DNA from: Syntrophomonadaceae bacterium | GTDB taxonomy: Bacteria > Bacillota > Dethiobacteria > DTU022 | Length of the DNA: 43,624 bases | Assembly (NCBI GenBank): GCA_007119615.1 | Contig: SKPH01000006.1 | Coordinates: forward strand, 1 to 43,624 | Direction of reading: 5' to 3' | Shown: piece by piece, positions 2,842-35,498 of the stretch | Layout of the letters: each line of letters starts with the position of its first letter | How positions within the stretch are numbered: position 1 is the first letter of the stretch | Translations under genes and position numbers: made by a program | The notes under the pieces: model-generated | The model's input: the letters and a program-made list of their open reading frames with translations, nothing else | Told to the model about the DNA's origin: nothing | Databases searched by the model: none

Positions 2842-2842
2842 C

Positions 2843-20526: not shown

Positions 20527-22242
20527 TCAGTTGGCAGCCTTCAATTTTTTGTGGCGTCTGGCTCTTTCCAGCAAGCTGTCGACATGCCTAAGGCTTACTT
20601 CATCGATGCTTGCTCCGTCGAGCATGCGGGCCAATTCCTCCCTAATTTCCGGTGTGGATAATTTTTCTGCCCTGGTGATAGTCCTGTTCCCGGCTGTCTC
20701 TTTATAAAGGCGGATATGGCAATCGGCCATTGAAGCAATTTGCGGACTGTGTGTAACACACATGACCTGGTGATGAAAGGCCAGTTGTGCCAATTTTTCG
20801 GCAACTGCCTGCACTGTTGCACCACCGATACCTGAATCTACCTCGTCAAATATCAGGGTAGGAATCAGGTCCTGGCGGGCCAGGATAGTTTTAAGAGCCA
20901 GCATTACCCGCGATACCTCTCCGCCTGAAATAATCTTTGTCAGGGGCTTAACTTCTTCACCGCGGTTGGCTGAAAAAAAGAACTCAACCTGGTCCATCCC
21001 TTTTGGAGAAAATCTCTCTTTAGCCGTAATTCTGATTTCAAACCGGGCGCCGGCCAGGGCGAGCTCTTTCAGGCACTCTTCAAGCAGTTTTTCCAGGTTA
21101 AGCGCTGTCTCCCGGCGCAGGGCGCGCAAAGAGTTACTTTCCGCAGTCAGTTCTTTTTCCAGATCGCTTATCTCAGCTTCAATTTTTTCAACCACTGCTT
21201 CGCTGTTCTGCAGCCGCTCCAGGTCTTCTTCGAGCTTCTCACCAAAAGCGATTATGTCTTCGATCGTCGTTCCATATTTACGTTTTAGGTTGTTTACCAG
21301 GTTTAATCGATCCTGAATTACGGTTAATTCATTGGGTTCAAATTCAAACCCGGCCTGGTAATCACGAAGCTCGTAGGAAACTTCCTCCAACTGGGCAGAG
21401 GCGCCGGCAAGAAGATCCAGCAGGGGAGAAAGTTTCCGGTCGATGGTCGCGGCTTCACTCAGGAGTTTCAATGACCGGTTCAAACGATCGACTATGGCTT
21501 CCACCGGGCTGTCTTCTTCACCGCTGTAAATATCGGCATACGCACTTGCAGTCAGGTTGCATATTTTTTCAGCATTGGCCAGAATTTTTTCTTTTTCGGC
21601 CAATTCCTGGTCTTCACCGGGGCTAAGCACTGCCTCCTTGATCTCTTTAAGCTGGAAAGCAGTTATGTCTATCCTTCTCTCACGTTCAACACTGCTTTCT
21701 CCGAGTTCTGTCAGCTCTTTTTTTAGGCTTTGGATCTTTTTAAAAAGTTCATCTACTTTAGAACGGGATGTATTTATAGTTTCTCCACCAAATGAGTCGA
21801 GCAGCTCAAGATGTTGTTCCGGCCGCAGTAACGACTGGTGCTGGTGCTGTCCGTGCAGATCAACTAACAACTGCCCGATTTCTTTTAGAAACGATACCGG
21901 AACCGCACGCCCGTTGACCCGGGCTACGCTGCGGCCGGTGCGAAATACTTCACGGGCGATAATCAGTTCATCGGAAGGATTAATTCCGGACTGATCGAGA
22001 AATTTACCGATCTCGTCCGCCAGAGCCGGTTCGCAGCAAACAATACCTTCGACATATGCTGTATCGCTTCCCTGGCGAACCTGTTCTACTACGGCTCTTT
22101 CACCGAGGAGCAAATTTATAGCATCGATAATAATAGATTTTCCTGCTCCTGTTTCACCGCTTAATATATTCAAACCGGGACTAAAGTTAAGGCTCAGGTC
22201 ATCAATCAGAGCAAAATTGGAAACCCTTAACTCAATAAACAT
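20527..22242 (-). CDS. recN: DNA repair protein RecN
   Basis: Walker A GETGAGKS, HGQHQHQ, coiled coil, SGGEVSRVMLALK, FDEVDSG, VTHSPQ. ATG 22242 behind GGGAGG. Confidence 0.96.
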   Translation of the reverse strand: MFIELRVSNFALIDDLSLNFSPGLNILSGETGAGKSIIIDAINLLLGERAVVEQVRQGSDTAYVEGIVCCEPALADEIGKFLDQSGINPSDELIIAREVFRTGRSVARVNGRAVPVSFLKEIGQLLVDLHGQHQHQSLLRPEQHLELLDSFGGETINTSRSKVDELFKKIQSLKKELTELGESSVERERRIDITAFQLKEIKEAVLSPGEDQELAEKEKILANAEKICNLTASAYADIYSGEEDSPVEAIVDRLNRSLKLLSEAATIDRKLSPLLDLLAGASAQLEEVSYELRDYQAGFEFEPNELTVIQDRLNLVNNLKRKYGTTIEDIIAFGEKLEEDLERLQNSEAVVEKIEAEISDLEKELTAESNSLRALRRETALNLEKLLEECLKELALAGARFEIRITAKERFSPKGMDQVEFFFSANRGEEVKPLTKIISGGEVSRVMLALKTILARQDLIPTLIFDEVDSGIGGATVQAVAEKLAQLAFHHQVMCVTHSPQIASMADCHIRLYKETAGNRTITRAEKLSTPEIREELARMLDGASIDEVSLRHVDSLLERARRHKKLKAAN

Positions 22243-22289
22243 CCCGTATCCTCCCAAATGCCATACCAGCTTTCGCCTTGGTTGTTTTA

Positions 22290-22382: not shown

Positions 22383-23234
22383 TTAACCTTTTAATTTCTG
22401 ATGAAGCATCCTGTAGAATGAATAATCATGAAAACAGACCAGCTTAACCTTTTGTTCGGAGCGTCGAATAATAATATGATCTTTATCTTCCATGGCAAAC
22501 CTGACCTGGCCGTCGACCGTGAGGACGACCTGGACTTGACGGGAATCGATGCGCAGCTTCATTTTATCATTGCCGTTAATAATTACCGATCTATTGTAGA
22601 GACTGTGCGGGCAAATCGGGGTTACCACAAACAATTCCATGGTCGGGTTGACGATCGGGCCCCCCGCCGACAGAGAATATCCCGTCGAACCGGTTGGTGT
22701 GGACACGATAATTCCGTCCCCGGAGTAGCTTTCCATAAAATCTTCATTAACGTGGGTTTCAACCTTGATTATTCTTGAAAAAGGCCCTCTCGAGATAACG
22801 ATATCATTGAGGGCCTGGTAATATCCCAGGTCATCATCGCCACGGCGCAACCATGCTTCGATCATCATCCGCTCCTGGTAGCTGTACTGTTCCGTTGCGA
22901 TATACTGTAAGAAGCGTTCCATCTGCTCAACTTCAATTTCAGCTAAAAAGCCCTTCTGTCCGAGGTTAATGCCCAGTATCGGCACATCCCAGCAGGCCAG
23001 ATCACGGGCGACACGAAGAATGGTGCCGTCCCCTCCGACAACTATAATAATTTTTAGTCTATCCTTCCATACGGAGAGCTGCTCAGCCAGTGATACTTCG
23101 CTGTAGAAGTCTGCCAGTTCTTTACCGGCTACCTGCATAGTAATCTGGCGCTGTTTAAAGAAGCGGGTTATCTTCTCGACAACCAGGGTTGAATTTTTTT
23201 TATGCCAGTTGGGAATTAACCCTAGATCTTTCAC
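22383..23234 (-). CDS. nadK: NAD(+) kinase
   Basis: GGDGT, GINLGQKGFL, ALND, GDGIIVSTPTGSTGYSLSAGGP, TPICPHSL, TVDG. Confidence 0.96.
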   Translation of the reverse strand: MKDLGLIPNWHKKNSTLVVEKITRFFKQRQITMQVAGKELADFYSEVSLAEQLSVWKDRLKIIIVVGGDGTILRVARDLACWDVPILGINLGQKGFLAEIEVEQMERFLQYIATEQYSYQERMMIEAWLRRGDDDLGYYQALNDIVISRGPFSRIIKVETHVNEDFMESYSGDGIIVSTPTGSTGYSLSAGGPIVNPTMELFVVTPICPHSLYNRSVIINGNDKMKLRIDSRQVQVVLTVDGQVRFAMEDKDHIIIRRSEQKVKLVCFHDYSFYRMLHQKLKG

Positions 23235-23269
23235 ACGGTTCCTCCTGTGAAACTATTTCTATATTTTTA

Positions 23270-23296
23270 ATTCTTTGCAGCAGCTCCGGATCCTTT
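23270..23296 (-). promoter_or_regulatory. sigma-H-like promoter upstream of nadK
   Basis: AAAGGAT...GAATT: AGGA (23294-23291), 17 nt, GAAT (23273-23270). Confidence 0.5.
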
Positions 23297-23304
23297 ACCT
23301 GGCT

Positions 23305-24141
23305 TTAATTTTTCTTTCCCAGTAATTCATGATGAGCCTGCACAACGGCCCGATCAATGCAGCCGGTATAGTCCTCCCGGCAACTGCACCCGGACTTCCG
23401 GTTAAAATCAAAATAAGCAAAATACTCAATGTTACCCTTAGGTCCGGGCCACCTGGAGAAAGTTATATCCCGGAAGCAGTATCCGGCTCGGCAGGCCATA
23501 TCTAAGGTATCTTTAAGAATCCTGCGGTGCAGTTCGGGGTCTCGGATAACACCTTTTCCTTTGCCGGCATCTATCCGGCCCGCTTCAAACTGTGGCTTAA
23601 TCAGGGCAAGTACAGCGGGAATAGTCAGTTTACTTAATACAGGCAGTACTTTGGAGAGCGAGATAAATGATACATCTACAACTGCCAGATCCGGCAGCCG
23701 GTCCAAATCACTGCGCGTAAGATTGCGGATATTAAACCGTTCCATCACAGTGACCCTGGAATCATTGCGCAGGCTCTGGTCAAGCTGCCCGTAGCCTACA
23801 TCAAGGGCAAATACAAATTTGGCTCCTTTTTTCAACAGGCAATCAGTGAAACCTCCGGTTGATGAGCCGACATCGAGAACAACCAGACCCCGCACATCGA
23901 TCTGCAGCTCATGCAGCGCACCTTCAATTTTTAATCCGCCGCGGCTAACATAAGGGTTTTCAGGTTTGCGCAGGTTGATCTCCACACTGCTGTCATGGAG
24001 TGTGCCCGGTTTATCGCTAACCCGACCGTTTACAATAACATTTCCGGCCATTATTTCAGCCTGAATACGGCTGCGGCTTAAATCGGGCCGTCTTTCTGCG
24101 AGCAGCAGATCCAGGCGTTCCTTTCGTTCCCGGGCGCTCAA
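23305..24141 (-). CDS. tlyA: TlyA family rRNA 2'-O-methyltransferase
   Basis: S4 domain (ERLDLLL), YVSRGGLK, LDVGSSTGGFTD, DVSFISL, LIKPQFEAG, GPKGNIEY. The TTG start at 24141 overlaps the dxs stop (TTGA). Confidence 0.94.
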   Translation of the reverse strand: MSARERKERLDLLLAERRPDLSRSRIQAEIMAGNVIVNGRVSDKPGTLHDSSVEINLRKPENPYVSRGGLKIEGALHELQIDVRGLVVLDVGSSTGGFTDCLLKKGAKFVFALDVGYGQLDQSLRNDSRVTVMERFNIRNLTRSDLDRLPDLAVVDVSFISLSKVLPVLSKLTIPAVLALIKPQFEAGRIDAGKGKGVIRDPELHRRILKDTLDMACRAGYCFRDITFSRWPGPKGNIEYFAYFDFNRKSGCSCREDYTGCIDRAVVQAHHELLGKKN

Positions 24142-26030
24142 GTCAGACCTTTTGCCGCCTGTCCACCGGCAAATGCAAGAGCCACATTGTAAATGCCGTC
24201 TGCGTCCAGATGACAGACGGAGAGCATCTGTGCCCTGGTTCCATGGCCGACAAAACAATCGTCTATCCCCAAACGTTTAATGGGCAGAAACATTCCTCTT
24301 TTCTCCAGCAGCTCCATAATGCCGCTGCCGAATCCTCCGCCCAGAACATTTTCTTCTACAGTAATCACCCGGCCGCATTTCCTGGCCCAGCCTAAAATCA
24401 GATCTTCATCGAGAGGTTTTATGAAACGGGCATTGATTACTGCCGTTTTTATCCCCTGCCAGAATAACTTTTCCGCAGCCTCAAGGGCTGAATTAACGAT
24501 TGTTCCTGCTGCAATAATCAGTAGATCTTCACCCTGCCGGATCACTTCTCCCCGGCCCCAGGGAAGAATCCTCGGTTTGGTTAGTTCGACTCCCAAAACT
24601 TTATCGCGCGGATACCTGATAGCTACAGGGCCGCCCACATGGTTAAGAGCTGTGGCAAACATATGTTGGAGCTCATCTTCGTTTGCAGGAGCCATTACCG
24701 ACATATTCGGCATAGTGCGCAGATAGGTAAGGTCGAAAAGCCCCTGGTGGGTTTCACCATCTTCTCCGATAATACCAGCCCGATCTACAGCAAATACAAC
24801 CGGCAGATCCTGCAGACAGGTATCATGTAATATCTGATCGTAAGCGCGCTGTAAGAAGGTGCTGTAAATGGCAACTACCGGCCGCATACCGCCCGCAGCC
24901 AGGGCTGCTGCAAAGGTGACGCCGTGCTGTTCAGCGATACCGACATCGTAAAATCTACCTGGAAACTCCTTAGAGAATTTGTTCAGGCCGGTACCGGCAG
25001 TCATTGCGGCAGTTATGGCTACTATATCCGGGTTTTCACGACCCAGTTGCAGCAGTGTCCGGCCAAATATATCTGTATAGGTCGGGCTTTTCTTTTCTTT
25101 AAGAGGCAGGCCGTTGTTTAAATCAAAAGGTCCGATTCCGTGAAATATTTCGGGGGATTTCTCTGCGTAATGATATCCTTTCCCTTTTTCGGTTACAACG
25201 TGAACTAAAACAGGACCGCTCATTTTATCGGCCTGTTGCAGTATATTCATGATCAGAGATATATTATGGCCGTCTACAGGGCCAAAATAGGTAAACCCAA
25301 GTTCTTCAAAAAGCATTCCCGGCATAATCAGGTATTTCAATCCGCCCTTAATTCTCTCAGCCGAATTCACCATCTGTTCGCCAACCAGCGGAATCCTGCC
25401 TACGAATTGCTCAAAATCTTTTTTCAGGCGGGAATACTTCGGATCGGAGCGAATACGCCCCAGGTAAGAGGACATGCTGCCTACATTAGAACTAATTGAC
25501 ATCTTGTTGTCGTTAAGAATGACCAGCAGGTTTGCCTTGATATGGCCGGCGTGGTTTAGTGCCTCGAATGCCATTCCTCCGGTGAGTGCTCCATCGCCTA
25601 TCACAGCAGCCACTTTATAGTCATCACCCTTGCAGTCACGGGCTCTGGCCAAACCGAGAGCAGCCGAAATTGAGGTGCTGCTGTGGCCGGTTAAAAAAGG
25701 ATCGTGCTCGCTTTCCGATGGTTTTGGAAAACCGCACAACCCCCCTTGCTGGCGCAGGGTCGGGAACTGGTCCCAGCGGCCGGTCAGGAGCTTATGCGGG
25801 TAGCTCTGATGCCCGACATCCCAGATCAGACGATCCCTGGGACTGCTGTAGTTACTGTGCAGGGCTACTGCCAGTTCAACAACCCCGAGGCTTGCCGCAA
25901 GGTGGCCGCCGTTATCGGCAACCGTTCTAATCATATATTCACGAATTTCCGCAGCAGCTTCGATCAGCTGTTCAGGGCCCAGTGTTTTCAGGTCCTGCGG
26001 CAGCTTTAAACTGCTGAGTAGCTCTCCCAT
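24138..26030 (-). CDS. dxs: 1-deoxy-D-xylulose-5-phosphate synthase
   Basis: GGHLAASLG, WDVGHQSYPHK, GHSSTSISA, TPP motif GDGALTGG..NDN, DVGIAEQH, YSTFLQRAYDQ, DRAG..DGETHQG. Confidence 0.97.
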   Translation of the reverse strand: MGELLSSLKLPQDLKTLGPEQLIEAAAEIREYMIRTVADNGGHLAASLGVVELAVALHSNYSSPRDRLIWDVGHQSYPHKLLTGRWDQFPTLRQQGGLCGFPKPSESEHDPFLTGHSSTSISAALGLARARDCKGDDYKVAAVIGDGALTGGMAFEALNHAGHIKANLLVILNDNKMSISSNVGSMSSYLGRIRSDPKYSRLKKDFEQFVGRIPLVGEQMVNSAERIKGGLKYLIMPGMLFEELGFTYFGPVDGHNISLIMNILQQADKMSGPVLVHVVTEKGKGYHYAEKSPEIFHGIGPFDLNNGLPLKEKKSPTYTDIFGRTLLQLGRENPDIVAITAAMTAGTGLNKFSKEFPGRFYDVGIAEQHGVTFAAALAAGGMRPVVAIYSTFLQRAYDQILHDTCLQDLPVVFAVDRAGIIGEDGETHQGLFDLTYLRTMPNMSVMAPANEDELQHMFATALNHVGGPVAIRYPRDKVLGVELTKPRILPWGRGEVIRQGEDLLIIAAGTIVNSALEAAEKLFWQGIKTAVINARFIKPLDEDLILGWARKCGRVITVEENVLGGGFGSGIMELLEKRGMFLPIKRLGIDDCFVGHGTRAQMLSVCHLDADGIYNVALAFAGGQAAKGLT

Positions 26031-26048
26031 CGCAATCCCCCCGCGATT

Positions 26049-26621
26049 TTACTCCGTCTTTTTTATCCAGCTTAAAGGTCTTTCCAGTCGGGTTATCAAT
26101 GACCCGACGACCAGGATCACTTCAGTTGAATGGTTTATGGCAACTATCTTACCCCAGGCTTTTCCTCCCACGGTCAAAGCGGCAACCAGAGCTGTCAGCA
26201 AAATACCGAGGTAGAATTCGGTCCGGGCTAAAGTAGCATCGGCAACAAGCCTGAAAACAATAATAGCGGCCAGTGTGCCGCTGACAACCCCGCTGATATC
26301 TCCGGCTACATCATTACAGAAATTTGCCACCTGCTCAGCATTTTTTACCAGGTAGACGCCGCGTTTTGCCCCGACAACTCTCCGGGCTGCCTTGGCGTTG
26401 AGGGGCCCTATTTTAGCTGCAGCAGCGGCAGTACCGATGAGATCAAAAATTACACCTACAAAGATGACAAATAATAAAATTGCAAACGCAGCAATAAGTG
26501 ACTGGATCTCACTGAGTGAATATTGTGTGATAAAACCAAAAATGATGGCCAGAATAAAGGTCCAGATTGAAATTATTATAACCCAACGTGTCCGTCGACG
26601 CTTTTTCCTGATTTTAGCCAA
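26049..26621 (-). CDS. oapA: OLE-associated protein A, membrane protein
   Basis: 190 aa with about four hydrophobic helices, FDLIGTA, NFCNDVAGDISGVVSG (DxxxD), ALTVGGKA.GK; lies between the OLE RNA and dxs. Confidence 0.88.
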   Translation of the reverse strand: MAKIRKKRRRTRWVIIISIWTFILAIIFGFITQYSLSEIQSLIAAFAILLFVIFVGVIFDLIGTAAAAAKIGPLNAKAARRVVGAKRGVYLVKNAEQVANFCNDVAGDISGVVSGTLAAIIVFRLVADATLARTEFYLGILLTALVAALTVGGKAWGKIVAINHSTEVILVVGSLITRLERPLSWIKKTE

Positions 26622-26644
26622 ACCTCATCACCTTTGTACAAAAA

Positions 26645-27205
26645 ACATAAGTGGTAACAAACCAGGTAAACTTTGCGGCTTAGGTCCAGCAGGATTTCCC
26701 ACATGGTCACCTGTCGTTGCCGAGCAGGCAGTTCCCTTTTAAGACTATGCCCGCTGTGTCACCAACAGCAGAACTGGATTACCACTTAGCTCACACTTTA
26801 ATCCCTGGCTTGTTTCTCTTTCGAGAGCAGTCTAGAAGATTTCCCCCCTGACGCCTGGTCTCCCCTAGCCTCTTTTGCAGAGTAGGTTTAAGGTATTTGC
26901 ATTCCCTCCACCTATTCCACTCAAGGCAGGCTACACTGCACACAGCTTTTGTACCGCATGCAGGTTTCTTACCCAAGCAGTAGCCTTTTGTTTATTAAAC
27001 AATACGCCACCGTCATTGGGTCTCCACGAAGGCAGGGTCAACGCCTACATGCCATTGTAGATCGCCCCGTCCTTCTTAACTCCCAGCACCAGCTCCCGAC
27101 TGGGCGTCGGCAGCCACCACCAGGAACTTCATCGGTGTGCCCTTAACGGATTTTTAGGCCCGTTTTCGGAGAGGGGCGGCAACTAGAATACTGCACCACT
27201 TATGC
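26645..27205 (-). ncRNA. ole: OLE RNA (ornate, large, extremophilic RNA)
   Basis: About 560 nt with no credible ORF. The ends form a perfect 10-bp stem (CAUAAGUGGU 27204-27195 / ACCACUUAUG 26655-26646). It carries blocks I recognise as OLE-conserved: GUAUUCUAGU, CUAAAAAUCCG, GGGCACA.CGAUGAAGUUCCUGGUG, GCUGGGAGUUAAG, GGCGUUGACCC, GUGGAGACC, GCAGUGUAGCCUGCCUUGAGUG, CUAAGUGGUAAUCCAG, GGGAAAUCCUGCUGGACCUAAGCCGCAA..UUUAC. Synteny with oapA-dxs-tlyA-nadK-recN matches known OLE loci. Confidence 0.93.
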
Positions 27206-27220
27206 TCGTTGCTGTGGAAT

Positions 27221-27249
27221 ATTATAGCATATCCGGGCTTTCTTCTCAA
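27221..27249 (-). promoter_or_regulatory. sigma-A promoter (extended -10) driving ole-oapA
   Basis: TTGAGA (27249-27244), 17 nt ending TGC, TATAAT (27226-27221); about 15 nt upstream of the OLE 5' stem. Confidence 0.8.
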
Positions 27250-27288
27250 CCTTACCGGAATTGACCGCTAAGCGATTTTACGGCGATT

Positions 27289-28227
27289 TTATAACAGCCC
27301 ATGGTTAATTTTGCATGCTTTCAGGGCGTTTTTCAACAACATCCGGTTAGTTACCGAGCCAACACCTTTAGGAACAGGGGATATGGCCCTGGTCTTATCT
27401 TTGACCGCGTCGAAGGATACATCGCCAACAGTTTTAGTCTTCGGTTTGCCCTTTTCATTGAGTACCGGTTCACCTTTTTCATCAACTACTTTTACCCGGT
27501 TAATTCCGACATCAATTACAATTGCCCCTTCTTTAACCTGCTCAGGACCGATTAAGTCTGCTTTGCCGGCTGCTACGATCAGGATATCGGCCCCCGTGGT
27601 GTGCTTCTCAAGGTTGCCCTTCATGCTGGTAAAGACATGCGTAACACTGGTAGTCGCATTTCGGTTAAGAGCGAGGAAGGCCACAGGTTTACCGACAATG
27701 TTAGAGTGGCCGACAACAACAATCTCAGCACCTTCAAAGAAGTCTTTTGGATCCATATTTTCGTCATTACGGGCAAAGCGTTCCAGAATTTCGATTACCG
27801 CCGCCGGAGTTGCCGGTGGGAAGGTAACCTCGCCCAGGGCGAGTTTACCCATGTTGAAAGGATGGAAGCAGTCAATATCTTTATTAACATCAATTGAGTT
27901 TATTACAACCGTATCCGATATCTGTTCGGGAAATGGGCGCAGGGGTAAAATTCCGCTGACCGTCGGATCGGCATTCAGTTTCTGTACAATATTGATAACT
28001 TCTGCTTCTGTTACATCCGCGGGAGGGTTTTCGTTAACATAGGCAAATCCGGCTTCTTCACAAAACTTTTCTACCTGCCCTCTGTACATGCGGGAACCGA
28101 AATCATCCCCAACCAGGAGGGTGGCAATCCCCGGGGTAATACCTTTGGCTTTAAGCTCCTCCGTTTCTTTGATAATTTCTTTCATGATCTCTTCGCCAAT
28201 CGCTACACAGTCAATTACTTTTGTCAT
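27289..28227 (-). CDS. folD: methylenetetrahydrofolate dehydrogenase FolD (probably monofunctional)
   Basis: LLVGDD, LNADP.VSGI, KDIDCFH, PATP, GHSNIVGKP, VIDVGIN, GDV, SPVPKGVG. YxxxK reads YRGQV and the GILVQLP equivalent reads GILPLRP. ATG 28227 behind AAAGGGG. Confidence 0.9.
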   Translation of the reverse strand: MTKVIDCVAIGEEIMKEIIKETEELKAKGITPGIATLLVGDDFGSRMYRGQVEKFCEEAGFAYVNENPPADVTEAEVINIVQKLNADPTVSGILPLRPFPEQISDTVVINSIDVNKDIDCFHPFNMGKLALGEVTFPPATPAAVIEILERFARNDENMDPKDFFEGAEIVVVGHSNIVGKPVAFLALNRNATTSVTHVFTSMKGNLEKHTTGADILIVAAGKADLIGPEQVKEGAIVIDVGINRVKVVDEKGEPVLNEKGKPKTKTVGDVSFDAVKDKTRAISPVPKGVGSVTNRMLLKNALKACKINHGLL

Positions 28228-28344
28228 CTTACTGTTCCCCTTTCTCAGTTTAAAATGATGATCTTCAGACATACATGCAACCTTTTTAATCGAAGTAATA
28301 AATGTGACCGGATTTAATTTGAGCCGCCGGTTTTCACAGCCTGC

Positions 28345-28980
28345 TTAAACCGATCTGAATTTGCTAATTACGCTATTCAGGGTTTCATCGGCAATTTTGC
28401 CGCCTTCCTCGATCAGCTGATCCATTTCTGCTGTTGTTTCATTTATAAAATTTTCATCTTTTATTGCGCCCAGGTTGATCAATACATTCAACTGGCCGCT
28501 GATCAGGGCTGCTTTTAAAAAAGCGACTCCGCAGCCGACATCAGAAATAGCAAGTTTTGTTCCAATCTGGCCCATCCGTTCATGGATCTTAATTCCCTGG
28601 TAAGCTTTTCGCATAATCTCCATCGGAACGGAGCATGCTTCTATTGAGCATTCTTCCATAACTTTTGCCTTGTGTTCGGCCTGGTCGGGTGTGTCTTTCG
28701 GCAGGCCGTACGCTTTTGAAAGCGGTTCAAATACCTCTGCATCCCTGTCGATTAATTTCTTGAGATCTTCGATAATCTGGTTACCCTGCTCCAGCAAGCT
28801 ATTTACTTCATCTTCAACATCGGCAAATTTCTTTTTCCCTACGGTCAGGTTGCCGACCATATTCGACAGGGCCATACCGATAGCGCCGCCCATTGCGGCC
28901 GCCCCGCCTCCCCCGGGAACCGGGGCTTTCGAAGCCAGAACATCGAGAAAGTAACTGCAGCTTTTGTCTGCCATTGCCAT
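28345..28980 (-). CDS. fchA: methenyltetrahydrofolate cyclohydrolase (FTCD_C / cyclodeaminase family)
   Basis: LASKAPVPGGGGAAA, MVGNLTVGKK, D...F, AYGLPK, ISDVG, NVLINL. ATG 28980 behind GAAGGAGG; adjacent to folD. Confidence 0.88.
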   Translation of the reverse strand: MAMADKSCSYFLDVLASKAPVPGGGGAAAMGGAIGMALSNMVGNLTVGKKKFADVEDEVNSLLEQGNQIIEDLKKLIDRDAEVFEPLSKAYGLPKDTPDQAEHKAKVMEECSIEACSVPMEIMRKAYQGIKIHERMGQIGTKLAISDVGCGVAFLKAALISGQLNVLINLGAIKDENFINETTAEMDQLIEEGGKIADETLNSVISKFRSV

Positions 28981-29085
28981 AATAGAACCCTCCTTCAGCA
29001 TTTTCGATCCCGGATGCCTGAATTCAGAAGGCGTAATTATCAGCCTTCCGGAAACATCCGTTATATATAAAAGCTTTTACAGCTT

Positions 29086-29970
29086 CTACCTCGTCCGGTA
29101 GATCATTTTGTTTGCCAGTTCCTTTAACAGCCCGGAAGGGCGATCAAGTTTATCCAGCGCCGATACAGCATCGATATATAACGCTTCGGCTCTTCTTCGG
29201 GCTTCTTCAGAACCAAGCAGGGCCGGATAGGTAGCTTTGGACAGGATCTGGTCTGCACCGGCCGGCTTGCCAAGCTCCGCTGTTGTGCTTTCGTAATCGA
29301 GCAGATCATCGATAATCTGGAAAGCAGGCCCGATCCTGGAAGCATAAGCATTCAGGACTTTGATTTGTTTTTCGGAAGCGTTCGCCGCGATCGCGCCGCA
29401 CACTACTGCAGCTCGCAGTAGTGCTCCTGTCTTCATTATTGCGATTTTGTCAACCTGGGCGGCATCCAGGGCAGCTCCTTCGGCTTCAAGGTCGAGGACC
29501 TGTCCACCGATCATCCCTTCCACTCCCGCCGCTCCGGCCAGCTCGCCCGTGATCCGGATCGCCCGTTTCTCCCTGCCTGCCCGGGAACCGTAGCAGGCTA
29601 TTGTTTCAAAAGCGAGGGTAAGCAGGGCATCTCCGGCCAAAATGGCTACCGCTTCACCGTAAACACGGTGGCAAGCCGGTTTACCGCGTCTCAGATCGCT
29701 GTTGTCCATTGCCGGCAGATCATCGTGAATCAGGGAGTAGGTATGTATATATTCCAGGGCACAGGCAACATCAATTATCGATTCGTCTTCCGCCCCAAGG
29801 GTCTCGGCAACGGCAAGCGCCAGGATGGGCCTGAGCCTTTTGCCGCCTGCTTCCAGGCTGTAACGCATTGCATCAACAACTGCAGCAGGGGCGGACCGAG
29901 GCATTCTTTCTGCCAGGGCCCGATCAATCTTAGCTTTTTCCTGCTCCAGGTATTTCCCGATTTCAATCAT
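29086..29970 (-). CDS. ispA: farnesyl/geranyl diphosphate synthase
   Basis: GGKRLRP, HTYSLIHDDLPAMD..D.RRG, AILAGDALL, GQ.LD, KTGALL, FQIIDDLLD, K.TYP. Confidence 0.95.
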   Translation of the reverse strand: MIEIGKYLEQEKAKIDRALAERMPRSAPAAVVDAMRYSLEAGGKRLRPILALAVAETLGAEDESIIDVACALEYIHTYSLIHDDLPAMDNSDLRRGKPACHRVYGEAVAILAGDALLTLAFETIACYGSRAGREKRAIRITGELAGAAGVEGMIGGQVLDLEAEGAALDAAQVDKIAIMKTGALLRAAVVCGAIAANASEKQIKVLNAYASRIGPAFQIIDDLLDYESTTAELGKPAGADQILSKATYPALLGSEEARRRAEALYIDAVSALDKLDRPSGLLKELANKMIYRTR

Positions 29971-30236
29971 GAATCGTCTTCCCCAATCTCTTCTTCCGGT
30001 TCTTCGTAAATATCCTGTTCAAAAGGCTGCCGATCTTCTTTAAGTAAATATTCAACCCTGTACTCAATTTCAGCCAGCTTTTCACGGCAATAACGGGAAA
30101 GGGCAATGCCTTCCTGGAAAGCGGAAAGTGATTCTTCCAGGGGTATCTCGGTATCTTCAAGGCGGTTGACCAGCTCCTCCAACCTCGCAATCGCTTCTTC
30201 GTAAGTCATCTTCTCAATTTTTTTATTCGCCACCAA
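29967..30236 (-). CDS. xseB: exodeoxyribonuclease VII small subunit
   Basis: TYEEAIARLEELVNRLE..EIPLEESL..FQEG..L...C...L; between xseA and ispA. Confidence 0.93.
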   Translation of the reverse strand: MVANKKIEKMTYEEAIARLEELVNRLEDTEIPLEESLSAFQEGIALSRYCREKLAEIEYRVEYLLKEDRQPFEQDIYEEPEEEIGEDDS

Positions 30237-31492: not shown

Positions 31493-33520
31493 TCAAACCA
31501 GGCCTTTCATCTCCTCCCGGACATCTTCCAGCGAATTATAGCTCCACCTTGCTCCCATCGCATCAGCCAGATCCAAAATAAACCGCCAGTCCGGCGTAAG
31601 ATTTTCACCGGTCGGCAGGGCGGCCTTGTTTAAGCGGGTCTGGGCGGAAGAATTCGTAAATAAGCCCTCTTTGGAAATTATATCCTGGGCGGGAAATATC
31701 AGATCGGCTCCGCCGGGAATTTCTTCTTCATCGCCGCATACCGCTGCCAGGAATTCAATTCCCGCCTTCTTTTGATCAGCGTAGACTTTACCGAAAGATA
31801 AAAGGCCTTTAACTTTCCCACTTTCGGCGGCAGCAAGTATATCTTCCCTGGCCATTCCGCTCGCGCCGTTAAGAACCGCAAAGCCGGGACCGTAAAAGGG
31901 AGTTCCTCCCGCGGCCAGAACGCCAACTGCGTTACTGTATTTGGAGAGCAGCAATAAGTTACTGCAGCCCTGCTCTATCTGCCCGCCGGTAACAGCCAGT
32001 TTCAGGAGCATATCAACAGACTGGTCGGATGCAGATTCAAAAAACGATGAACCGGCCACTATATAGCTGTTCGGGCCGGAGAGCAGCTTGGCGGCGGCCC
32101 GGAGATTGTCATCGCTAATCCCGCTTAATGAAACTGATCCGGTTTCTTCATCTCCGTTTTGGAGGGCAACGAGCGCCTCCATAAATGCAAATTCACCGTT
32201 ATTTTCTGTGGTATAGATTATCTCTTTCCAGGCCGAATTTTCTCTTTCGGTTTCAGCAGGCCTGATAATAACCGCATCGCCAAATCTCCCGGAATGATCT
32301 ACCGCCATGGCGGCAACCGGGTGGCTCTCATCTATTTCTCTTCCCAGGACAAGGATTGTTTCGGCATTACTGAGGGCGTACGGGGTGGGGCAGGCAATAC
32401 CGGTTCCTGTGATATCCTGCATGCCCGTAAATGCTTTAACCCAGGCCGGTTCAGCCCCCAGATCTATATTGGCGGTGCCCAGGACGGTTCTGGCAAATTT
32501 TTGAGCCAGGTAAATTTCTTCGCTGCTGAGCTTTCCCGATCCCAGTACAGCCAGTGCATCCGGACCAAAATCTTCCTTAATTTTCAGCAGGACATCAGCC
32601 GCTTTCCGGATTGCCTGATCATAAGTTACTTCTTCATAACCTGAACCGTCTGTTTTAAATTTCATCACTGCAGTAATCAGTTTTGCTGCATCTTCACGAA
32701 TAAACCCGAACTTGCCTCTCTTGCAGAGCCAGCTTACACTGTCCCCTTCCCTGGGAACCGTAACCCTGATCATATCGTCGCCGGAAAGCTGCCTCTCCAG
32801 GTAACAGCCTACCGAGCACTCAGTACAAATACCGGGAACACAGGAAAGTTCCCACTCCCTGCCTCCGGCGCTGCGAGTCTTTTCGGTAAGCGCTGCAACA
32901 GGGCAGACATCTACGCATTGTCCGCACATCACGCAGCCGGCTTCTTCCATGGTTACTTCCTTTCCGTCGCGGCAGGGTATAACCCTGGTATTGACCCCGT
33001 TGCCGGTCAGGCTGTAAACGAAGGCCCCTGGACCGGTCCGGCAGATCTGCAGACACCGGCCGCATAGAATACATTTTTCCTCATCACGGACGATATATGG
33101 GTTATCGGAGAATGTCCCAGCGGGAATATCCCTGGGGATCTGGTCAGGCAGATTTGACTGGAACCTGTAAGCGTTTTCCTGCAGTTCGCAGGTTCCGGTT
33201 CTCACGCAAGTCAGGCAGTCTTTGTATGGATGAGTAGCCAGGGACAGCTCCAGGATCTTGCAGCGCATCTCCTGTAATTCCGGTGTGTCGGTTGTTACAA
33301 TCATTTCTTCTTTCACCGGATTGTCGCAGGAAGTGACCGGGCGCTCCATTCCACTGATTTTAACTATACAGATCCGGCAGTGCCCGAGCGGTTCCAGCCT
33401 GGGATGATAGCAAAGGGTGGGAATGGTAATTCCGTTTTGCCGAGCTGCTTCCAGGATTGTTGTGCCCTCATCGGCAAATATTTTTTTACCGTCAATTGTT
33501 AAACTAATGGTTTTTATCAT
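31493..33520 (-). CDS. SfrA/NuoG/FdhA-like Fe-S protein with a degenerate molybdopterin-oxidoreductase fold
   Basis: [2Fe-2S] motif (PTLC..CRIC..SC), H-x3-C-x2-C-x5-C, 2x[4Fe-4S] (CILCGRCLQIC; CVMCGQCVDVCP), CTECSVGC..LCKRG. The FDH catalytic loop (NxDxCARx[U/C]H) is replaced by NIDLGAEPAW, and the protein ends without the C-terminal molybdopterin-binding domain. Confidence 0.75.
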   Translation of the reverse strand: MIKTISLTIDGKKIFADEGTTILEAARQNGITIPTLCYHPRLEPLGHCRICIVKISGMERPVTSCDNPVKEEMIVTTDTPELQEMRCKILELSLATHPYKDCLTCVRTGTCELQENAYRFQSNLPDQIPRDIPAGTFSDNPYIVRDEEKCILCGRCLQICRTGPGAFVYSLTGNGVNTRVIPCRDGKEVTMEEAGCVMCGQCVDVCPVAALTEKTRSAGGREWELSCVPGICTECSVGCYLERQLSGDDMIRVTVPREGDSVSWLCKRGKFGFIREDAAKLITAVMKFKTDGSGYEEVTYDQAIRKAADVLLKIKEDFGPDALAVLGSGKLSSEEIYLAQKFARTVLGTANIDLGAEPAWVKAFTGMQDITGTGIACPTPYALSNAETILVLGREIDESHPVAAMAVDHSGRFGDAVIIRPAETERENSAWKEIIYTTENNGEFAFMEALVALQNGDEETGSVSLSGISDDNLRAAAKLLSGPNSYIVAGSSFFESASDQSVDMLLKLAVTGGQIEQGCSNLLLLSKYSNAVGVLAAGGTPFYGPGFAVLNGASGMAREDILAAAESGKVKGLLSFGKVYADQKKAGIEFLAAVCGDEEEIPGGADLIFPAQDIISKEGLFTNSSAQTRLNKAALPTGENLTPDWRFILDLADAMGARWSYNSLEDVREEMKGLV

Positions 33521-33536
33521 CTTTTCCCCTCCCCCT

Positions 33537-35498
33537 TTAAGATATGATCAGGCCCAGACGCAGGCACTTGAAACATCTTTCGGTTTCCTTAACGACAGAT
33601 GAAGGGCACTTGAATCCCAACTCGGCCTCATCGAATCCGCGCACTCTTTCATCCACCGGGCTGACCTCTTCCTCCAGCCTTTCTCTTCCTCCGATCATTT
33701 CCGGTACTGTAAGTTCATTATAAACACCTAATTTTTCAAGGTGTTTCTCCATTTCGAACTGCCCACCGACAGAACTTTTTCCTTTTCGGAGGTAGCTGTC
33801 GATTGCTTCGGCAGCACGATTGGCCGATGCAATCGCTTCAATAACAGTCCGGGCGCCCAAAACGGCATCTCCCCCGGCAAATATTCCGGGCTTATCCGCC
33901 GCCATAGTTTCTTCATCGACAGCCAGGGTGCCCCATTTGGTAACATCCATACCGCAACCTTCGTTAAGGTAGCAAAAATCAGCAACCTGGCCGATTGCCG
34001 GTATCGCTGTATCCACCTTAAGAACAAATTCCGACCCGTCCAGGGGCACCGGCCTACGGCGGCCGCTGGCATCCGGCTCCCCCAGTTTCATCCTGATACA
34101 TTCCATACCGCTGACTGTGCCTTTTTCCTCGAGGATACAGACGGGATTAGCTAAAAGGTGGAACCTGATACCTTCCTCTTCGGCCGCATCAACTTCCGCC
34201 TTGCTGGCGGGCATTTCCGTCCTGCTGCGGCGATAGATTAAATGGACCTCCTTGACCCCAAGACGAACAGCGGAACGGGCGCAATCCATCGCTACGTTTC
34301 CGCCGCCGATCACAGCAACGCTTTCGCCAAGATCCACTTCCTCTCCGAGATTGACCTTGCGCAGGAATTCGATGCCCGGCATATAACCGTAATAGCAGGC
34401 ATCCTCCCCTTCGCAGCCAAGGGTGGAGCTTTTATGAAGGCCGCTGGCGATAAAGATCGCCTTATAGCCCTGCTCCCAGATCTGATCCAGTGTAATATCT
34501 TCACCCACCCGGGTGTTATATTTAATTTCCACGCCCAGGCTGGTAACCAGCTCAACTTCGGCGTTCAGAATATCACGCGGTAGTCGGTAACTTGGAATAC
34601 CGACAGCAAGCATGCCGCCCGCAACAGGCAGTTCTTCAAATATCGTAACATTATAACCTTTCAAGGCAAGCTGATATCCTGCATTCAGACCGGCCGGGCC
34701 GGCTCCTACTATCGCCACTTTGTCCGCATCCGGTAGGGGTTTAGGGTAATCTCTCTTACTGTCGTTATCGGTGCCGGCAACGAAATCGGCAGCAAAACGT
34801 TTTAAAAGCCGAATTGATATTGACTCGTCATACGGCTGCCGGTTGCAATTCGATTCGCAGGGATGCACGCAAACCCGTCCCAGGGTTCCGACCAGGGGTG
34901 TTTTCTCCCGGTTAACAGCAACAGCTTCCTCGTAGTTACCTTCCCTGATGCATTCAATGTATTTGGGAATATTAATATGTGCGGGGCATCCGTTGCGACA
35001 TGGCGCAGTCAGGATGGGTCGATACTGATCGGTTTTTCCAACTGCAGGCCTGTTGCCGTTCAAACATGCTTTGAAATCTTCCTTAAAATGTTCAAGGGCA
35101 TGCAGCAGGGGTAGCGGTGAAGAAACTCCCAGTTCGCAGAGTGAACCGTCTCTAATCAGCACCGCTAGCTCACCTAGGAATTCAAGGTCTTGCCCGGTCC
35201 CTTTTCCTGAAATTAAGTTTTCCAGGCGATCGGAGATTACTTTACTTCCTGCCCTGCAGGGAATACAGCGGCCACAGGACTCGTTCTGGACACAACTGTA
35301 AAATTCTTTTAACGCTCCGATCAGATCTACTTCAGGATCGACAATAACCAGCCCTGCCCATCCGATCATCGCTTTCAGGTCTCCACTGCCAAACTTTGCC
35401 GGAAGATCCAGTTCTTCAAGATCGGTGCGTTGATCCAAATCTTTATCCCGTTCGTCAACTATTTTTCCATTCCAGCTGCTAAAAAATACCTTGGCCAT
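33537..35498 (-). CDS. SfrB/FdhB-like NAD(P)H-binding Fe-S flavoprotein (NuoF-type Fe-S domain + GltD/SudA-like domain)
   Basis: N-terminus MAKVFFSSWNG, ESCGRCIPCR..SLCELG, APCRNGCP, GRVCVHPCE..C.R, GAGPAG, GGGNVAMDCAR, YRRS, FAGGD, ERCFKC. Confidence 0.82.
   Translation of the reverse strand: MAKVFFSSWNGKIVDERDKDLDQRTDLEELDLPAKFGSGDLKAMIGWAGLVIVDPEVDLIGALKEFYSCVQNESCGRCIPCRAGSKVISDRLENLISGKGTGQDLEFLGELAVLIRDGSLCELGVSSPLPLLHALEHFKEDFKACLNGNRPAVGKTDQYRPILTAPCRNGCPAHINIPKYIECIREGNYEEAVAVNREKTPLVGTLGRVCVHPCESNCNRQPYDESISIRLLKRFAADFVAGTDNDSKRDYPKPLPDADKVAIVGAGPAGLNAGYQLALKGYNVTIFEELPVAGGMLAVGIPSYRLPRDILNAEVELVTSLGVEIKYNTRVGEDITLDQIWEQGYKAIFIASGLHKSSTLGCEGEDACYYGYMPGIEFLRKVNLGEEVDLGESVAVIGGGNVAMDCARSAVRLGVKEVHLIYRRSRTEMPASKAEVDAAEEEGIRFHLLANPVCILEEKGTVSGMECIRMKLGEPDASGRRRPVPLDGSEFVLKVDTAIPAIGQVADFCYLNEGCGMDVTKWGTLAVDEETMAADKPGIFAGGDAVLGARTVIEAIASANRAAEAIDSYLRKGKSSVGGQFEMEKHLEKLGVYNELTVPEMIGGRERLEEEVSPVDERVRGFDEAELGFKCPSSVVKETERCFKCLRLGLIIS

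What the first reader, a model, noticed from the sequence alone, without database searches (positions are those of the whole stretch)
26049..27249. OLE RNA / OapA ribonucleoprotein locus missing from the ORF track
Seen: a ~560-nt stretch with no credible ORF, closed by a perfect 10-bp terminal stem and full of short hairpins (e.g. CUCUCGAAAGAGA, CUCUGCAAAAGAG, GCUGUUGGUGACACAGC). It is followed ~25 nt later by a 190-aa membrane protein with the NDxxGD (DxxxD) motif. Known: OLE RNAs are among the largest conserved bacterial ncRNAs, occur in anaerobic or extremophilic Bacillota upstream of oapA-dxs-tlyA-nadK-recN, localise to the membrane via OapA, and have no resolved biochemical activity. Inference: this is an intact, fairly compact OLE from a probably little-studied lineage. 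The class is known, but this is the most notable element in the window.
Basis: partly seen in the sequence, partly recalled or inferred. Interest (0 to 1): 0.75.

Follow-up and report, generated by a model that had tools for sequence, protein, structure and literature searches.

The report
Ordinary OLE RNA with OapA gene
This stretch encodes a textbook OLE RNA, a large membrane-bound bacterial non-coding RNA of still unknown chemistry, followed by the gene for its membrane anchor OapA; it is a normal member of a known class.

Summary
The observation and the interpretation both hold. Rfam's OLE model (RF01071) matches window 26635-27215 (minus strand) end to end at 465 bits (cut-off 50). The 10-bp terminal stem, the named hairpins and the 190-aa membrane ORF with DVAGD 24 nt downstream are all present. 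The gene order is the usual xseA-xseB-ispA-fchA-folD-OLE-oapA-dxs-tlyA-nadK-recN.

Relatives back this up:
- In 35 related OLE sequences, 93 of 176 predicted pairs show compensatory changes, against 52.7±3.5 in shuffles.
- A TTGnnn-17/18-TATAAT promoter is kept in 32 of 32 close loci.
- All 31 sampled genomes of the order carry OLE, one of them split by an assembly gap.
- The same genome encodes an OapB-like protein. A same-genus genome encodes a YbxF/OapC-like protein.
- RNA-library contigs pile up on OLE and not on its flanks.

The "compactness" is a shortened P9 stem without the palindromic loop that forms one dimer bridge in the published cryo-EM structure. The whole order and other families share this, and shorter P9 stems are already in print. 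Verdict: a known class and an ordinary member, of low interest.

The parts
27221..27249 (-). Sigma-70-type promoter of ole: -35 TTGAGA (27244-27249), 17-nt spacer, TG-extended -10 TATAAT (27221-27226). The start is inferred at about 27212-27214.
   Evidence: 11 of 12 consensus matches, TG before the -10. The position is kept in 32 of 32 close loci and in 53 of 59 distinct upstream regions overall.
26635..27215 (-). OLE RNA gene (581 nt as matched by Rfam RF01071).
   Evidence: 465.2 bits, E 1.5e-133, model 1-616. Single copy in the genome. Covariation.
27195..27204 (-). 5' arm of the terminal stem that closes the RNA.
   Evidence: Read. Helix 1: 10 of 13 pairs change on both sides.
26646..26655 (-). 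3' arm of the terminal stem, followed by a U-rich tail.
27145..27164 (-). P4 hairpin with the A-rich loop. In the published dimer this loop forms the A-A contact.
   Evidence: loop columns invariant in 35 sequences. The role is taken from PMC12265935 section 4.
27081..27140 (-). J4a/5, P5/P5.1 and J5/6. This holds the k-turn region bound by OapC in H. halodurans and the L5.1 loop (27101-27105).
   Evidence: Conserved columns. The role is taken from PMC9723947 and PMC12265935. Position 27135 is C where 90% or more of the relatives have T.
27028..27076 (-). P6/P6.1 with the L6.1 loop (27050-27056), which is complementary to L5.1.
   Evidence: helices 9 and 10.
26867..26927 (-). Shortened P9. The distal roughly 38 nt of the consensus (the P9.3 hairpin with its palindromic loop) are replaced by a short tip at about 26893-26906.
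   Evidence: 41 consensus positions against 3; inner span 38 nt here. Across 88 sequences the span is bimodal, 33-48 or 71-81 nt.
26751..26771 (-). P13 hairpin, the OapB-binding site. It has a GUGA tetraloop (26759-26762) and a single bulged U (26765) two pairs below the loop.
   Evidence: helix 23 (7 of 8 pairs change on both sides). The site is defined in PMC7936274.
26049..26621 (-). oapA: a 190-aa membrane protein with a TTG start. DVAGD is encoded at 26298-26312.
   Evidence: (motif invariant in 28 of 28).
27289..28272 (-). folD, the upstream neighbour.
24138..26030 (-). dxs, the downstream neighbour. It is followed by a tlyA-like methyltransferase (23305-24258), nadK (22383-23234) and recN (20527-22257).

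Best explanation
**What it is.** This is an intact ole-oapA locus, the genes for the RNA and the membrane-anchor protein of the OLE ribonucleoprotein particle.

**Shown here**
- A full-length OLE RNA gene with its own conserved promoter.
- oapA following it, with no terminator between them.
- The P13 GUGA-plus-bulge site for OapB, intact.
- The conserved L4, L5.1 and L6.1 loops, present.
- An OapB-like gene elsewhere in the same genome.
- RNA-library contigs that cover OLE far more deeply than its neighbours.

**Inferred from work on Halalkalibacterium halodurans and on clostridial OLE RNAs**
1. The RNA is made from its own promoter, and probably also by read-through from folD.
2. It folds and pairs with a second copy through the L4 and L5.1/L6.1 contacts.
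3. OapA holds it at the membrane.
4. OapB (on P13) and OapC (on the k-turn beside P5) stabilise it.
5. The particle helps the cell tolerate stresses such as alcohols, cold, excess Mg2+ and poor carbon sources.

**Mechanism I think most likely (about 40%).** OapA is a trimmed CNNM-type divalent-cation transporter. The RNA supplies the sensing and regulating role that the CBS and CorC domains play in all-protein relatives such as MpfA and CorB.

**What differs here.** In this lineage the P9 arch and its palindromic kissing loop are missing, so that one dimer bridge cannot form in the published way.
For: - **Identity:** (465.2 bits against a cut-off of 50, full model). (single copy).
- **Structure:**. 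176 pairs, 97.0% paired; 93 pairs change on both sides, against 52.7±3.5 in shuffles (0 of 500) and 32-47 when partners are slid.
- **Context:** (ispA, FTCD_C, folD upstream; dxs, FtsJ+S4, nadK, recN downstream). (Asp23, nusB and efp further upstream).
- **Promoter:**
- **No terminator:** one search finds no minus-strand terminator between OLE and oapA.
- **OapA:** DVxGD is invariant in 28 of 28 relatives. 27 of the 28 OapA loci have OLE upstream. The model has pLDDT 79.3. The six best Foldseek matches are all CNNM CorB/CorC transmembrane domains, E 0.011-0.66. The four best VIA-align matches are the same proteins: Z 11.0-12.7; rmsd 2.9-3.7 A over 126-131 residues for three of them, 8.7 A for the fourth, 7cfg.
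- **OapB:** a 95-aa ORF between map and infA on contig C56. Its best solved relative is 'OLE-associated protein B' 7k9b, E 1.4e-6.
- **OapC:** an L7Ae-family gene is in 28 of 31 relatives, and in 24 of 24 that are at least 90% complete. In the one locus annotated (L105) it sits between rpoC and rpsL. The same-genus copy sits just upstream of rpsL and best matches solved YbxF, E 1.1e-15.
- **CNNM in relatives:** only 2 of 31 relatives have a CNNM hit that is not the OapA gene itself. This fits the published OLE/MpfA anticorrelation (PMC11332333).
- **RNA:**. RNA run X3 has summed contig depth of 7.5e3 to 9.3e5 over 26510-27211, against 0-4 in the flanks. An exact-match RNA contig at 26953-27041 has depth 3976, against 5.6 on oapA and 2.6 on folD. 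DNA contigs of the same sample lie flat at about 14.
Against: - No function was tested here, and the biochemical activity of OLE is unknown in any species.
- The RNA evidence is from assembled contigs, not reads. Depths add up look-alike OLE RNAs of many organisms: 1618 contigs were laid, only 330 of them at 99% or more. No 5' or 3' end can be seen, and the tool warns against ranking genes by such depth.
- OapC and bS21 were not found in this genome. It is only 69.8% complete and lacks the rpsL-rpsG region, so this says little either way.
- OapA has no Pfam or NCBIfam match and does not reach the CNNM profile even at E 10.
- The fold match is below Foldseek's E 0.001. Its Z of 12.7 is in the range that helical bundles can reach by arrangement alone; the next unrelated rows reach Z 9.4.
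- The distal P9 with its kissing loop, one of the dimer contacts in the solved structure, is absent.
- The OapB-like protein carries A where the H. halodurans protein has an RNA-contacting N, N56 in the paper's numbering (alignment; the offset of 4 is my inference).
Confidence: 0.9

Rival explanations
1. The element is a true OLE RNA, but it works chiefly as a ribozyme that catalyses a reaction not yet identified. OapA would then be only its membrane tether. The discoverers have long held this view.
For: The size, about 27 helices and many invariant unpaired nucleotides are typical of catalytic RNAs. The argument is made in PMC11332333 (abstract) and PMC12265935 (introduction).
Against: No reaction has been found in roughly 20 years (same papers). 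OapA resembles a transporter domain. CNNM transporters are rare where OLE is present (PMC11332333), which points to overlapping function with a transporter.
Confidence: 0.2
2. The structured RNA acts in cis, as a long leader that controls expression of oapA-dxs-tlyA-nadK-recN, and not as a free stable RNA.
For: No intrinsic terminator lies between OLE and oapA. The cluster is one polycistronic transcript in H. halodurans (PMC12265935 introduction).
Against: RNA-library contig depth falls by about three orders of magnitude or more between the OLE bins and the oapA bins. That fits a separately accumulating RNA. The RNA carries binding sites for trans-acting proteins (P13/OapB). Published work shows membrane localisation and a dimer structure.
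Confidence: 0.03
3. The locus is a decaying remnant: an OLE gene that lost P9.3 and is on its way out in a small genome.
For: The distal P9 is missing. The assembly is small, 1.06 Mb at 69.8% completeness. The published survey links reduced OLE variants to reduced genomes (PMC11332333 section 5).
Against: The match is full length with few non-standard pairs. The same short P9 is kept across the order with compensatory changes in its remaining stem (helices 15 and 16). The promoter is conserved. All 31 sampled genomes of the order keep OLE. P7, P8 and the OapB site are intact. The RNA library holds abundant OLE contigs.
Confidence: 0.02

Closest known systems
OLE ribonucleoprotein complex of Halalkalibacterium (Bacillus) halodurans (OLE RNA with OapA, OapB, OapC; Breaker laboratory)
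   Same: The RNA family is the same and the RNA has its own promoter (PMC9723947 passage). oapA lies directly downstream and carries DxxxD. The P13 site has a GUGA tetraloop with a single bulged U two pairs below it, as described for nucleotides 498-504 of that RNA. An OapB-like KOW protein is present. A YbxF-like protein is present in a same-genus genome. The neighbourhood holds isoprenoid, folate, NAD and DNA-repair genes.
   Different: The P9 stem is about 38 nt shorter and has no palindromic loop. The host is an uncultured lineage with a small genome, found in runs labelled soda lake or alkali sediment. Nothing was tested at the bench. I did not compare OapA directly with the H. halodurans protein.
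OLE RNA homodimers solved by cryo-EM (Clostridium acetobutylicum, Kretsch et al. 2025, PMC12286853; C. botulinum, cited in PMC12265935)
   Same: The nucleotides of the L4 A-rich loop and of the L5.1 and L6.1 loops, which form three of the four dimer contacts, are present and invariant among relatives.
   Different: The fourth contact cannot form as published. It is a kissing pair of palindromic L9.3 loops (GGCC, also GAUC or AGCU), and that hairpin is absent here. In one search, 0 of 42 short-P9 sequences carry GGCC, against 40 of 46 long-P9 sequences.
Published OLE size variants (full-length, variant 1, variant 2; Fernando and Breaker 2024, PMC11332333)
   Same: A shorter P9 is listed as a trait seen 'in many clades' (section 5).
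   Different: Variant 1 also has shorter P7 and P8 and often lacks the OapB site. Variant 2 lacks P7 and P8. Here P7 (53 nt) and P8 (27 nt) are of normal length and the OapB site is intact. The Rfam score of 465 bits lies above their 390-bit line for 'full-length', but their model is not the Rfam one.
CNNM/CorB/CorC/MpfA divalent-cation transporters (solved: 7m1t, 7m1u, 7cff, 7cfg)
   Same: The predicted OapA fold aligns best to their transmembrane domain. Several relatives' OapA genes hit the CNNM profile weakly over profile positions 1 to about 130. Bona fide CNNM genes are rare in the OLE-bearing relatives, 2 of 31.
   Different: OapA has no CBS or CorC domains (190 aa, no Pfam match). It carries DxxxD, which CNNM domains lack (PMC11332333). 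This window's OapA does not reach the CNNM profile at all.

Membership tests
OLE RNA (Rfam RF01071) | Score above the curated gathering threshold over the whole covariance model | tested here: met
   465.2 bits against 50, E 1.5e-133, model 1-616 of 616, not truncated.
OLE RNA (Rfam RF01071) | Ornate secondary structure supported by covariation | tested here: met
   De novo RNAalifold on 35 sequences gives 176 pairs in 27 helices. 93 pairs change on both sides, against 52.7±3.5 in shuffles (0 of 500) and 32-47 for slid partners.
OLE RNA (Rfam RF01071) | oapA immediately downstream, within a cluster of housekeeping genes (isoprenoid, folate, NAD, DNA repair) | tested here: met
   27 of 28 OapA-relative loci have OLE upstream.
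OLE RNA (Rfam RF01071) | Host in Bacillota, typically anaerobic or extremophilic | tested here: inconclusive
   Relatives are MAGs that depositors labelled Syntrophomonadaceae, Dethiobacteria or Bacillota. The best-holding runs are labelled soda lake or alkali sediment. The organism itself is unnamed and its physiology was not tested.
OLE RNA (Rfam RF01071) | OapB site: GNRA tetraloop on P13 with a single-nucleotide bulge | tested here: met
   GUGA loop at 26759-26762 and bulged U at 26765. The loop columns read G-Y-R-A in all 35 rows of the alignment, by my reading. Helix 23 covaries. The site is defined in PMC7936274.
OLE RNA (Rfam RF01071) | K-turn-forming nucleotides flanking P5 (OapC site) | tested here: inconclusive
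   The flanking columns are invariant or nearly so, but I did not model the k-turn. Position 27135 is C where 90% or more of relatives have T. If this is the equivalent of H. halodurans U84, the paper reports that U84C still binds. That equivalence is my inference.
OLE RNA (Rfam RF01071) | Accumulates as an abundant discrete RNA | tested here: inconclusive
   RNA-library contigs have summed depth 7.5e3-9.3e5 on OLE against 0-4 on the flanks. An exact-match contig has depth 3976. These are contigs only: no ends, and several organisms are summed.
'Full-length' OLE as in the cryo-EM dimers | Long P9 with a palindromic L9.3 kissing loop (bridge B3) | tested here: not met
   41 consensus positions are replaced by 3. 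The inner P9 span is 38 nt, against 71-81 nt in long forms, and has no GGCC, GATC or AGCT. Published variants that lack whole stems are still counted as OLE, so this does not bear on class membership.
OLE 'variant 1' (Fernando and Breaker 2024) | Shorter P7, P8 and P9; often no OapB site | tested here: not met
   Only P9 is short. P7 is 53 nt and P8 is 27 nt, as in long forms, and the OapB site is intact.
OapA | Small membrane protein with about four transmembrane helices and a basic cluster | tested here: met
   Four hydrophobic segments and 8 K/R in the first 12 residues. The model is all-helical. Which face of the membrane the basic cluster lies on was not tested.
OapA | Conserved DxxxD motif | tested here: met
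   DVAGD at residues 104-108. D104, V105, G107 and D108 are invariant in 28 of 28 relatives.
OapA | CNNM-like transmembrane fold without CBS or CorC domains | tested here: inconclusive
   The top six Foldseek rows (E 0.011-0.66) and top four VIA-align rows (Z 11.0-12.7) are CNNM CorB/CorC. This is below Foldseek's 0.001 and within the range helical bundles can reach by chance. No other domains were found.
OapA | Binds OLE RNA and brings it to the membrane | not testable with these tools
   This needs binding and localisation assays.
OapB (YbzG) | Protein of about 95-100 aa with an N-terminal KOW barrel, homologous to the solved OapB | tested here: met
   A 95-aa ORF on contig C56 between map and infA. 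Its best solved relative is 7k9b 'OLE-associated protein B', E 1.4e-6, residues 6-59 on 6-59. The next rows are L14e at E 0.03 or weaker.
OapC (YbxF) | L7Ae-family k-turn binder encoded between rpoC and rpsL | tested here: inconclusive
   Not found in this genome, which also lacks rpsL and rpsG. It is present in 28 of 31 relatives. It sits between rpoC and rpsL in the one locus annotated, L105. The same-genus copy lies just upstream of rpsL and matches solved YbxF at E 1.1e-15.

The most novel reading that the evidence does not exclude
In this soda-lake order, and in several other families of the phylum, OLE particles work without the P9 arch and its L9.3 kissing bridge. The boldest reading left open is that these short-P9 RNAs assemble differently from the solved clostridial dimer. 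They might form a looser or differently angled dimer held only by the L4 and L5.1/L6.1 contacts, or use a partner that replaces the arch. The arch would then be an accessory and not part of the core mechanism.
Probability: 0.25. Interest if true: 0.4.

Novelty: already known. Interest (0 to 1): 0.18.

Why it matters
The class is one of the best-known unsolved bacterial RNAs, but this copy adds little. A standard Rfam scan finds it. A survey of GTDB genomes already lists 2,822 OLE hits in Bacillota (PMC11332333 section 5). OLE RNA has also been reported among the abundant non-coding RNAs of a soda-lake sediment metatranscriptome (PMC6704655 passage).

Three modest points may be useful:
1. In this order OLE was found in all 31 genomes sampled, and the partner genes are traceable.
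2. The order is a natural set of RNAs that keep every conserved core except the P9.3 hairpin. That gives a comparative handle on whether that dimer bridge is needed.
3. The conserved cores of OLE break metagenome assemblies. Surveys of MAGs will therefore miss or split some copies.

Tried and rejected
- **OapB by motif.** A residue-pattern search built from contact residues named in PMC7936274 found nothing. The pattern was too strict: this protein has N-I-A-H where I had asked for N-x-N-H. I found OapB instead by looking between map and infA. I recalled that position from Bacillus gene order; it did not come from a call.
- **KOW profile PF00467 in the own genome.** Nothing scored over the cut-off, even though the OapB-like ORF exists. 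That short profile was not a usable test.
- **L7Ae, CNNM and bS21 in the own genome.** No matches. The bin is 69.8% complete and lacks the rpsL region, so I draw nothing from these.
- **Two-anchor P9 measurement.** It picked up false matches on wrong strands. I discarded it and repeated it with longer anchors. In one search some P7 and P8 values near 80-108 nt are artefacts of an early anchor match, and I do not use them.
- **Same-genus genome G001 without OLE.** This looked like a loss, but it is an assembly break. The two halves lie at two contig ends.
- **L047.** This OapA-like gene (36-39% identical) in an uncultured Clostridium MAG has no OLE within the 1.5 kb held on either side. I did not follow it further.
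- **RNA run X19.** It holds only short, diverged OLE pieces: 27 contigs, 1 of them at 99% or more. It is not evidence for this organism.
- **Earlier notes of this scan.** Nothing near the place or under the words searched.
- **Supplement of PMC11332333 held as text.** It names no lineages, so I cannot say whether this species is among the published hits. The supplementary figures and alignment files were not seen.
- **Searches in print.** 'OLE RNA' with 'Dethiobacter' gave one paper. I ran no search for 'short P9', so I make no claim that the P9-only truncation is unpublished.
Full report
**The observation**

On the minus strand, a perfect 10-bp stem (arms 27195-27204 and 26646-26655) encloses 559 nt. 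Twenty-four nucleotides after the stem a TTG opens a 190-aa ORF (26049-26621). The ORF has four hydrophobic segments, 8 K/R in its first 12 residues, and DVAGD at residues 104-108.

**What it is**

A scan of the whole window against Rfam 15 gives two matches. One is a tRNA at 7-80. The other is OLE (RF01071) at 26635-27215 on the minus strand: 465.2 bits against a gathering score of 50, E 1.5e-133, model positions 1-616 of 616, not truncated. It is the only copy in the assembly, which has 1.06 Mb in 66 contigs and is 69.8% complete.

Pfam names the neighbours on the same strand:
- Upstream: exonuclease VII large and small subunits, a polyprenyl synthase (ispA), an FTCD_C cyclodeaminase and folD.
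- Downstream of the 190-aa ORF: dxs, an FtsJ+S4 methyltransferase (tlyA-like), NAD kinase and recN.
- Further upstream: nusB, an Asp23-family gene and efp.

This is the gene neighbourhood described for ole (PMC12265935 introduction).

**Transcription signals**

A promoter-like site lies at 27249-27221, with TTGAGA, a 17-nt spacer, and TATAAT preceded by TG. It ends 6 nt before the Rfam match begins. In all 32 distinct loci from the window, its order and the OapA relatives, a TTGnnn-17/18-TATAAT site sits 13-25 nt before the conserved 5' core. Across all 59 distinct upstream regions examined, 53 have such a site within 75 nt. No minus-strand terminator lies between OLE and the ORF. H. halodurans likewise has a promoter of its own for ole inside a larger operon (PMC9723947 passage).

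**Relatives and structure**

OLE was found in 30 of 31 genomes of the same family and order, counting the window's own. The exception was the same-genus genome G001. Its copy turned out to be cut by an assembly gap: model positions 1-219 lie at one contig end and 428-616 at another. So the count is 31 of 31.

A scan for OapA relatives in named genome records gave 28 loci, and 27 of them have OLE upstream.

I aligned 35 distinct full-length sequences and let RNAalifold predict a structure without reference to Rfam. It gave 176 pairs in 27 helices, and 93 pairs have changes on both sides. Counted with controls:

| Measure | Observed | Shuffled | Partners slid 1-3 columns |
|---|---|---|---|
| Cells paired | 97.0% | 89.4% | 41-47% |
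| Pairs changed on both sides | 93 | 52.7±3.5 (0 of 500 reach 93) | 32-47 |

**Why it is compact**

Against the Rfam consensus the only large difference is in P9, where 41 consensus positions are answered by 3. I measured the distance between conserved anchors in 88 distinct OLE sequences. This sample is deliberately mixed: the relatives, the 30 best hits of the phylum sample, and 20 shorter hits that I fetched on purpose. The inner P9 span is sharply bimodal:

| P9 form | Sequences | Inner span | With GGCC | With GGCC, GATC or AGCT |
|---|---|---|---|---|
| Short (the window is 38 nt) | 42 | 33-48 nt | 0 | 8 (by my reading, inside stems) |
| Long | 46 | 71-81 nt | 40 | 42 |

No sequence falls between the two ranges.

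The tetranucleotide GGCC is the palindrome of loop L9.3. In the cryo-EM dimer this loop kisses its twin to form bridge B3, and it covaries to GAUC or AGCU (PMC12286853 passage; PMC12265935 section 4). P7 (53 nt) and P8 (27 nt) are of normal length.

The short P9 is shared by every order relative examined except G019 (locus L002). It also occurs in other families of the phylum sample: G155 and G114 (f47), G132 (f78), G078 (f54), G063 (f39), G046 (f22), G113 (f46) and G130 (same class). In that evenly drawn sample, 113 of 151 genomes had OLE, and most full hits were 600-640 nt long.

Shorter P9 stems 'in many clades' are already noted in print, there together with shorter P7 and P8 (PMC11332333 section 5). 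So the compactness is real, typical of the lineage, and not new in kind.

**Protein partners**

*OapA.*
- The ORF has no Pfam or NCBIfam family.
- In 28 relatives D104, V105, G107 and D108 are invariant, as is a TVGGKAxGK stretch. DxxxD is the published hallmark of OapA and is absent from CNNM domains (PMC11332333 passage).
- An AlphaFold2 model built on that alignment (pLDDT 79.3) finds CNNM transmembrane domains first. The six best Foldseek rows are MtCorB and CorC, E 0.011-0.66.
- The four best VIA-align rows are the same proteins: Z 11.0-12.7; rmsd 2.9-3.7 A over 126-131 residues for three of them, 8.7 A for the fourth, 7cfg. Unrelated helical bundles follow at Z 9.4 and below.
- This agrees with the published comparison but is not strong on its own.
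- The nearest named cultured organism is Alkaliphilus transvaalensis, at 48% identity, with OLE upstream.

*OapB.*
- The same genome has a 95-aa ORF between map and infA on contig C56.
- Its best solved relative is 'OLE-associated protein B' 7k9b (E 1.4e-6). L14e proteins follow at E 0.03 or weaker.
- Its RNA site is intact: P13 ends in GUGA, with one bulged U two pairs below. That is the arrangement required in H. halodurans (PMC7936274).

*OapC.*
- No L7Ae-family gene was found in this genome. The genome also lacks rpsL and rpsG.
- Among relatives, 28 of 31 have one, and 24 of 24 among those at least 90% complete.
- In the one locus annotated (L105) it lies between rpoC and rpsL.
- The same-genus copy lies just upstream of rpsL and best matches solved YbxF, E 1.1e-15.

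*CNNM transporters.* Hits that are not OapA itself occur in 2 of 31 relatives. This is in line with the reported anticorrelation between OLE and MpfA (PMC11332333 abstract and passages).

**Expression**

One RNA library (X3, from the same sample as DNA run X2) holds 43% of the sampled words of the stretch. I laid it on 23000-30000.
- RNA contigs sum to depths of 7.5e3, 3.4e5 and 9.3e5 in the three bins covering OLE. Most other bins read 0-4, with one outlier of 25.5 at 29552-29785.
- DNA contigs of the organism lie flat at about 14, with a 20- to 80-fold rise over OLE. That rise reflects look-alike OLE genes of other community members.
- One RNA contig matches the window exactly over 26953-27041, a variable part of the RNA, at depth 3976. 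Exact-match RNA contigs on oapA and folD have depths of 5.6 and 2.6.

These are contigs, not reads. They show no ends, they add up several organisms, and the tool warns against ranking genes by them. I take them as support for an abundant OLE transcript, not as proof. A published soda-lake sediment metatranscriptome likewise lists OLE RNA among its most abundant non-coding RNAs, at about 1% of ncRNA reads (PMC6704655 passage).

**How it most likely works**

Shown here:
- The gene and its promoter.
- The covarying fold.
- The partner genes.
- The intact OapB site.
- The conserved L4, L5.1 and L6.1 loops.

Taken from the literature:
- OapA binds the RNA and brings it to the membrane.
- OapB and OapC are needed for function.
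- The RNA dimerises.
- Loss of the particle makes H. halodurans sensitive to alcohols, cold, Mg2+ above about 2 mM and poor carbon sources.

The mechanism I favour, at about 40%, is that OapA is a pared-down CNNM-type cation transporter. The RNA would replace the regulatory CBS and CorC domains of MpfA-like proteins. The main rival, at about 20%, is an unidentified ribozyme activity. Neither can be decided by computation.

**Verdict**

The element is a regular member of a well-described class that routine annotation finds. Its one peculiarity, the lost P9.3 hairpin, is shared with many relatives and is of a kind already reported. Interest is low.

Noticed in passing
L024 (a 2,881-base contig of a MAG labelled Ilumatobacteraceae), OLE at 879-1457 and oapA at 1501-2040: The OLE and OapA most like the window's (nhmmer 527 bits; OapA 82% identical) sit on a very short contig binned into an actinobacterial MAG. 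This is almost certainly a mis-binned Bacillota contig. It matches the published remark that OLE hits outside Bacillota look like assembly or transfer artefacts (PMC11332333 section 5).
   Followed up: partly
G001 contigs C20 and C21 (L101 1-217, L100 1-188); window 26656-27141 in DNA runs X1 and X2: Metagenome assemblies break inside OLE. The same-genus genome has its copy split over two contig ends, and the DNA contigs of two runs stop at 26656 and resume at 27141. The likely cause is that co-occurring relatives share the invariant cores. Surveys of MAGs will therefore undercount or truncate OLE.
   Followed up: yes
window 27135 (minus strand): C stands where 90% or more of 35 relatives have T, in the joining region before P5 that forms the OapC k-turn. 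It may correspond to the U84C change that was tolerated in H. halodurans, but the numbering equivalence is my inference.
   Followed up: no
window 6613-9030 (minus strand): An 805-aa ORF fuses LytB/IspH (residues 9-280) to four S1 domains. It looks like an ispH-rpsA fusion. The isoprenoid genes ispA and dxs flank OLE in the same window.
   Followed up: no
window 14730-17483 (minus strand): A 917-aa ORF combines DHH, two CBS domains and a poly(A) polymerase/CCA-adding head domain.
   Followed up: no
window 176-850 (plus strand) and 2254-2913 (minus strand): Two PlsY-type glycerol-3-phosphate acyltransferase paralogues lie within 2 kb, on opposite strands, around an HD-domain gene.
   Followed up: no
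window 31493-35498 (minus strand): Two large iron-sulfur/flavin oxidoreductase genes sit between the nusB region and xseA, inside the otherwise typical OLE neighbourhood. One resembles a molybdopterin-type enzyme with NuoG-like clusters. The other combines a NuoF-like domain with a pyridine-nucleotide disulfide reductase domain.
   Followed up: no
L047 (uncultured Clostridium sp. MAG), oapA-like gene at 1501-1995: This OapA-like gene (36-39% identical, DVIGD kept) has no OLE within the 1.5 kb held on each side. It may be a stand-alone paralogue, or its OLE may be encoded elsewhere.
   Followed up: partly
L114 1725-2009 (own genome, contig C56): The OapB-like protein keeps the G-R, R and N...H contact residues of the solved OapB. 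It has A where that protein has a second RNA-contacting N, and K where it has R35 (paper numbering; the offset is inferred).
   Followed up: partly
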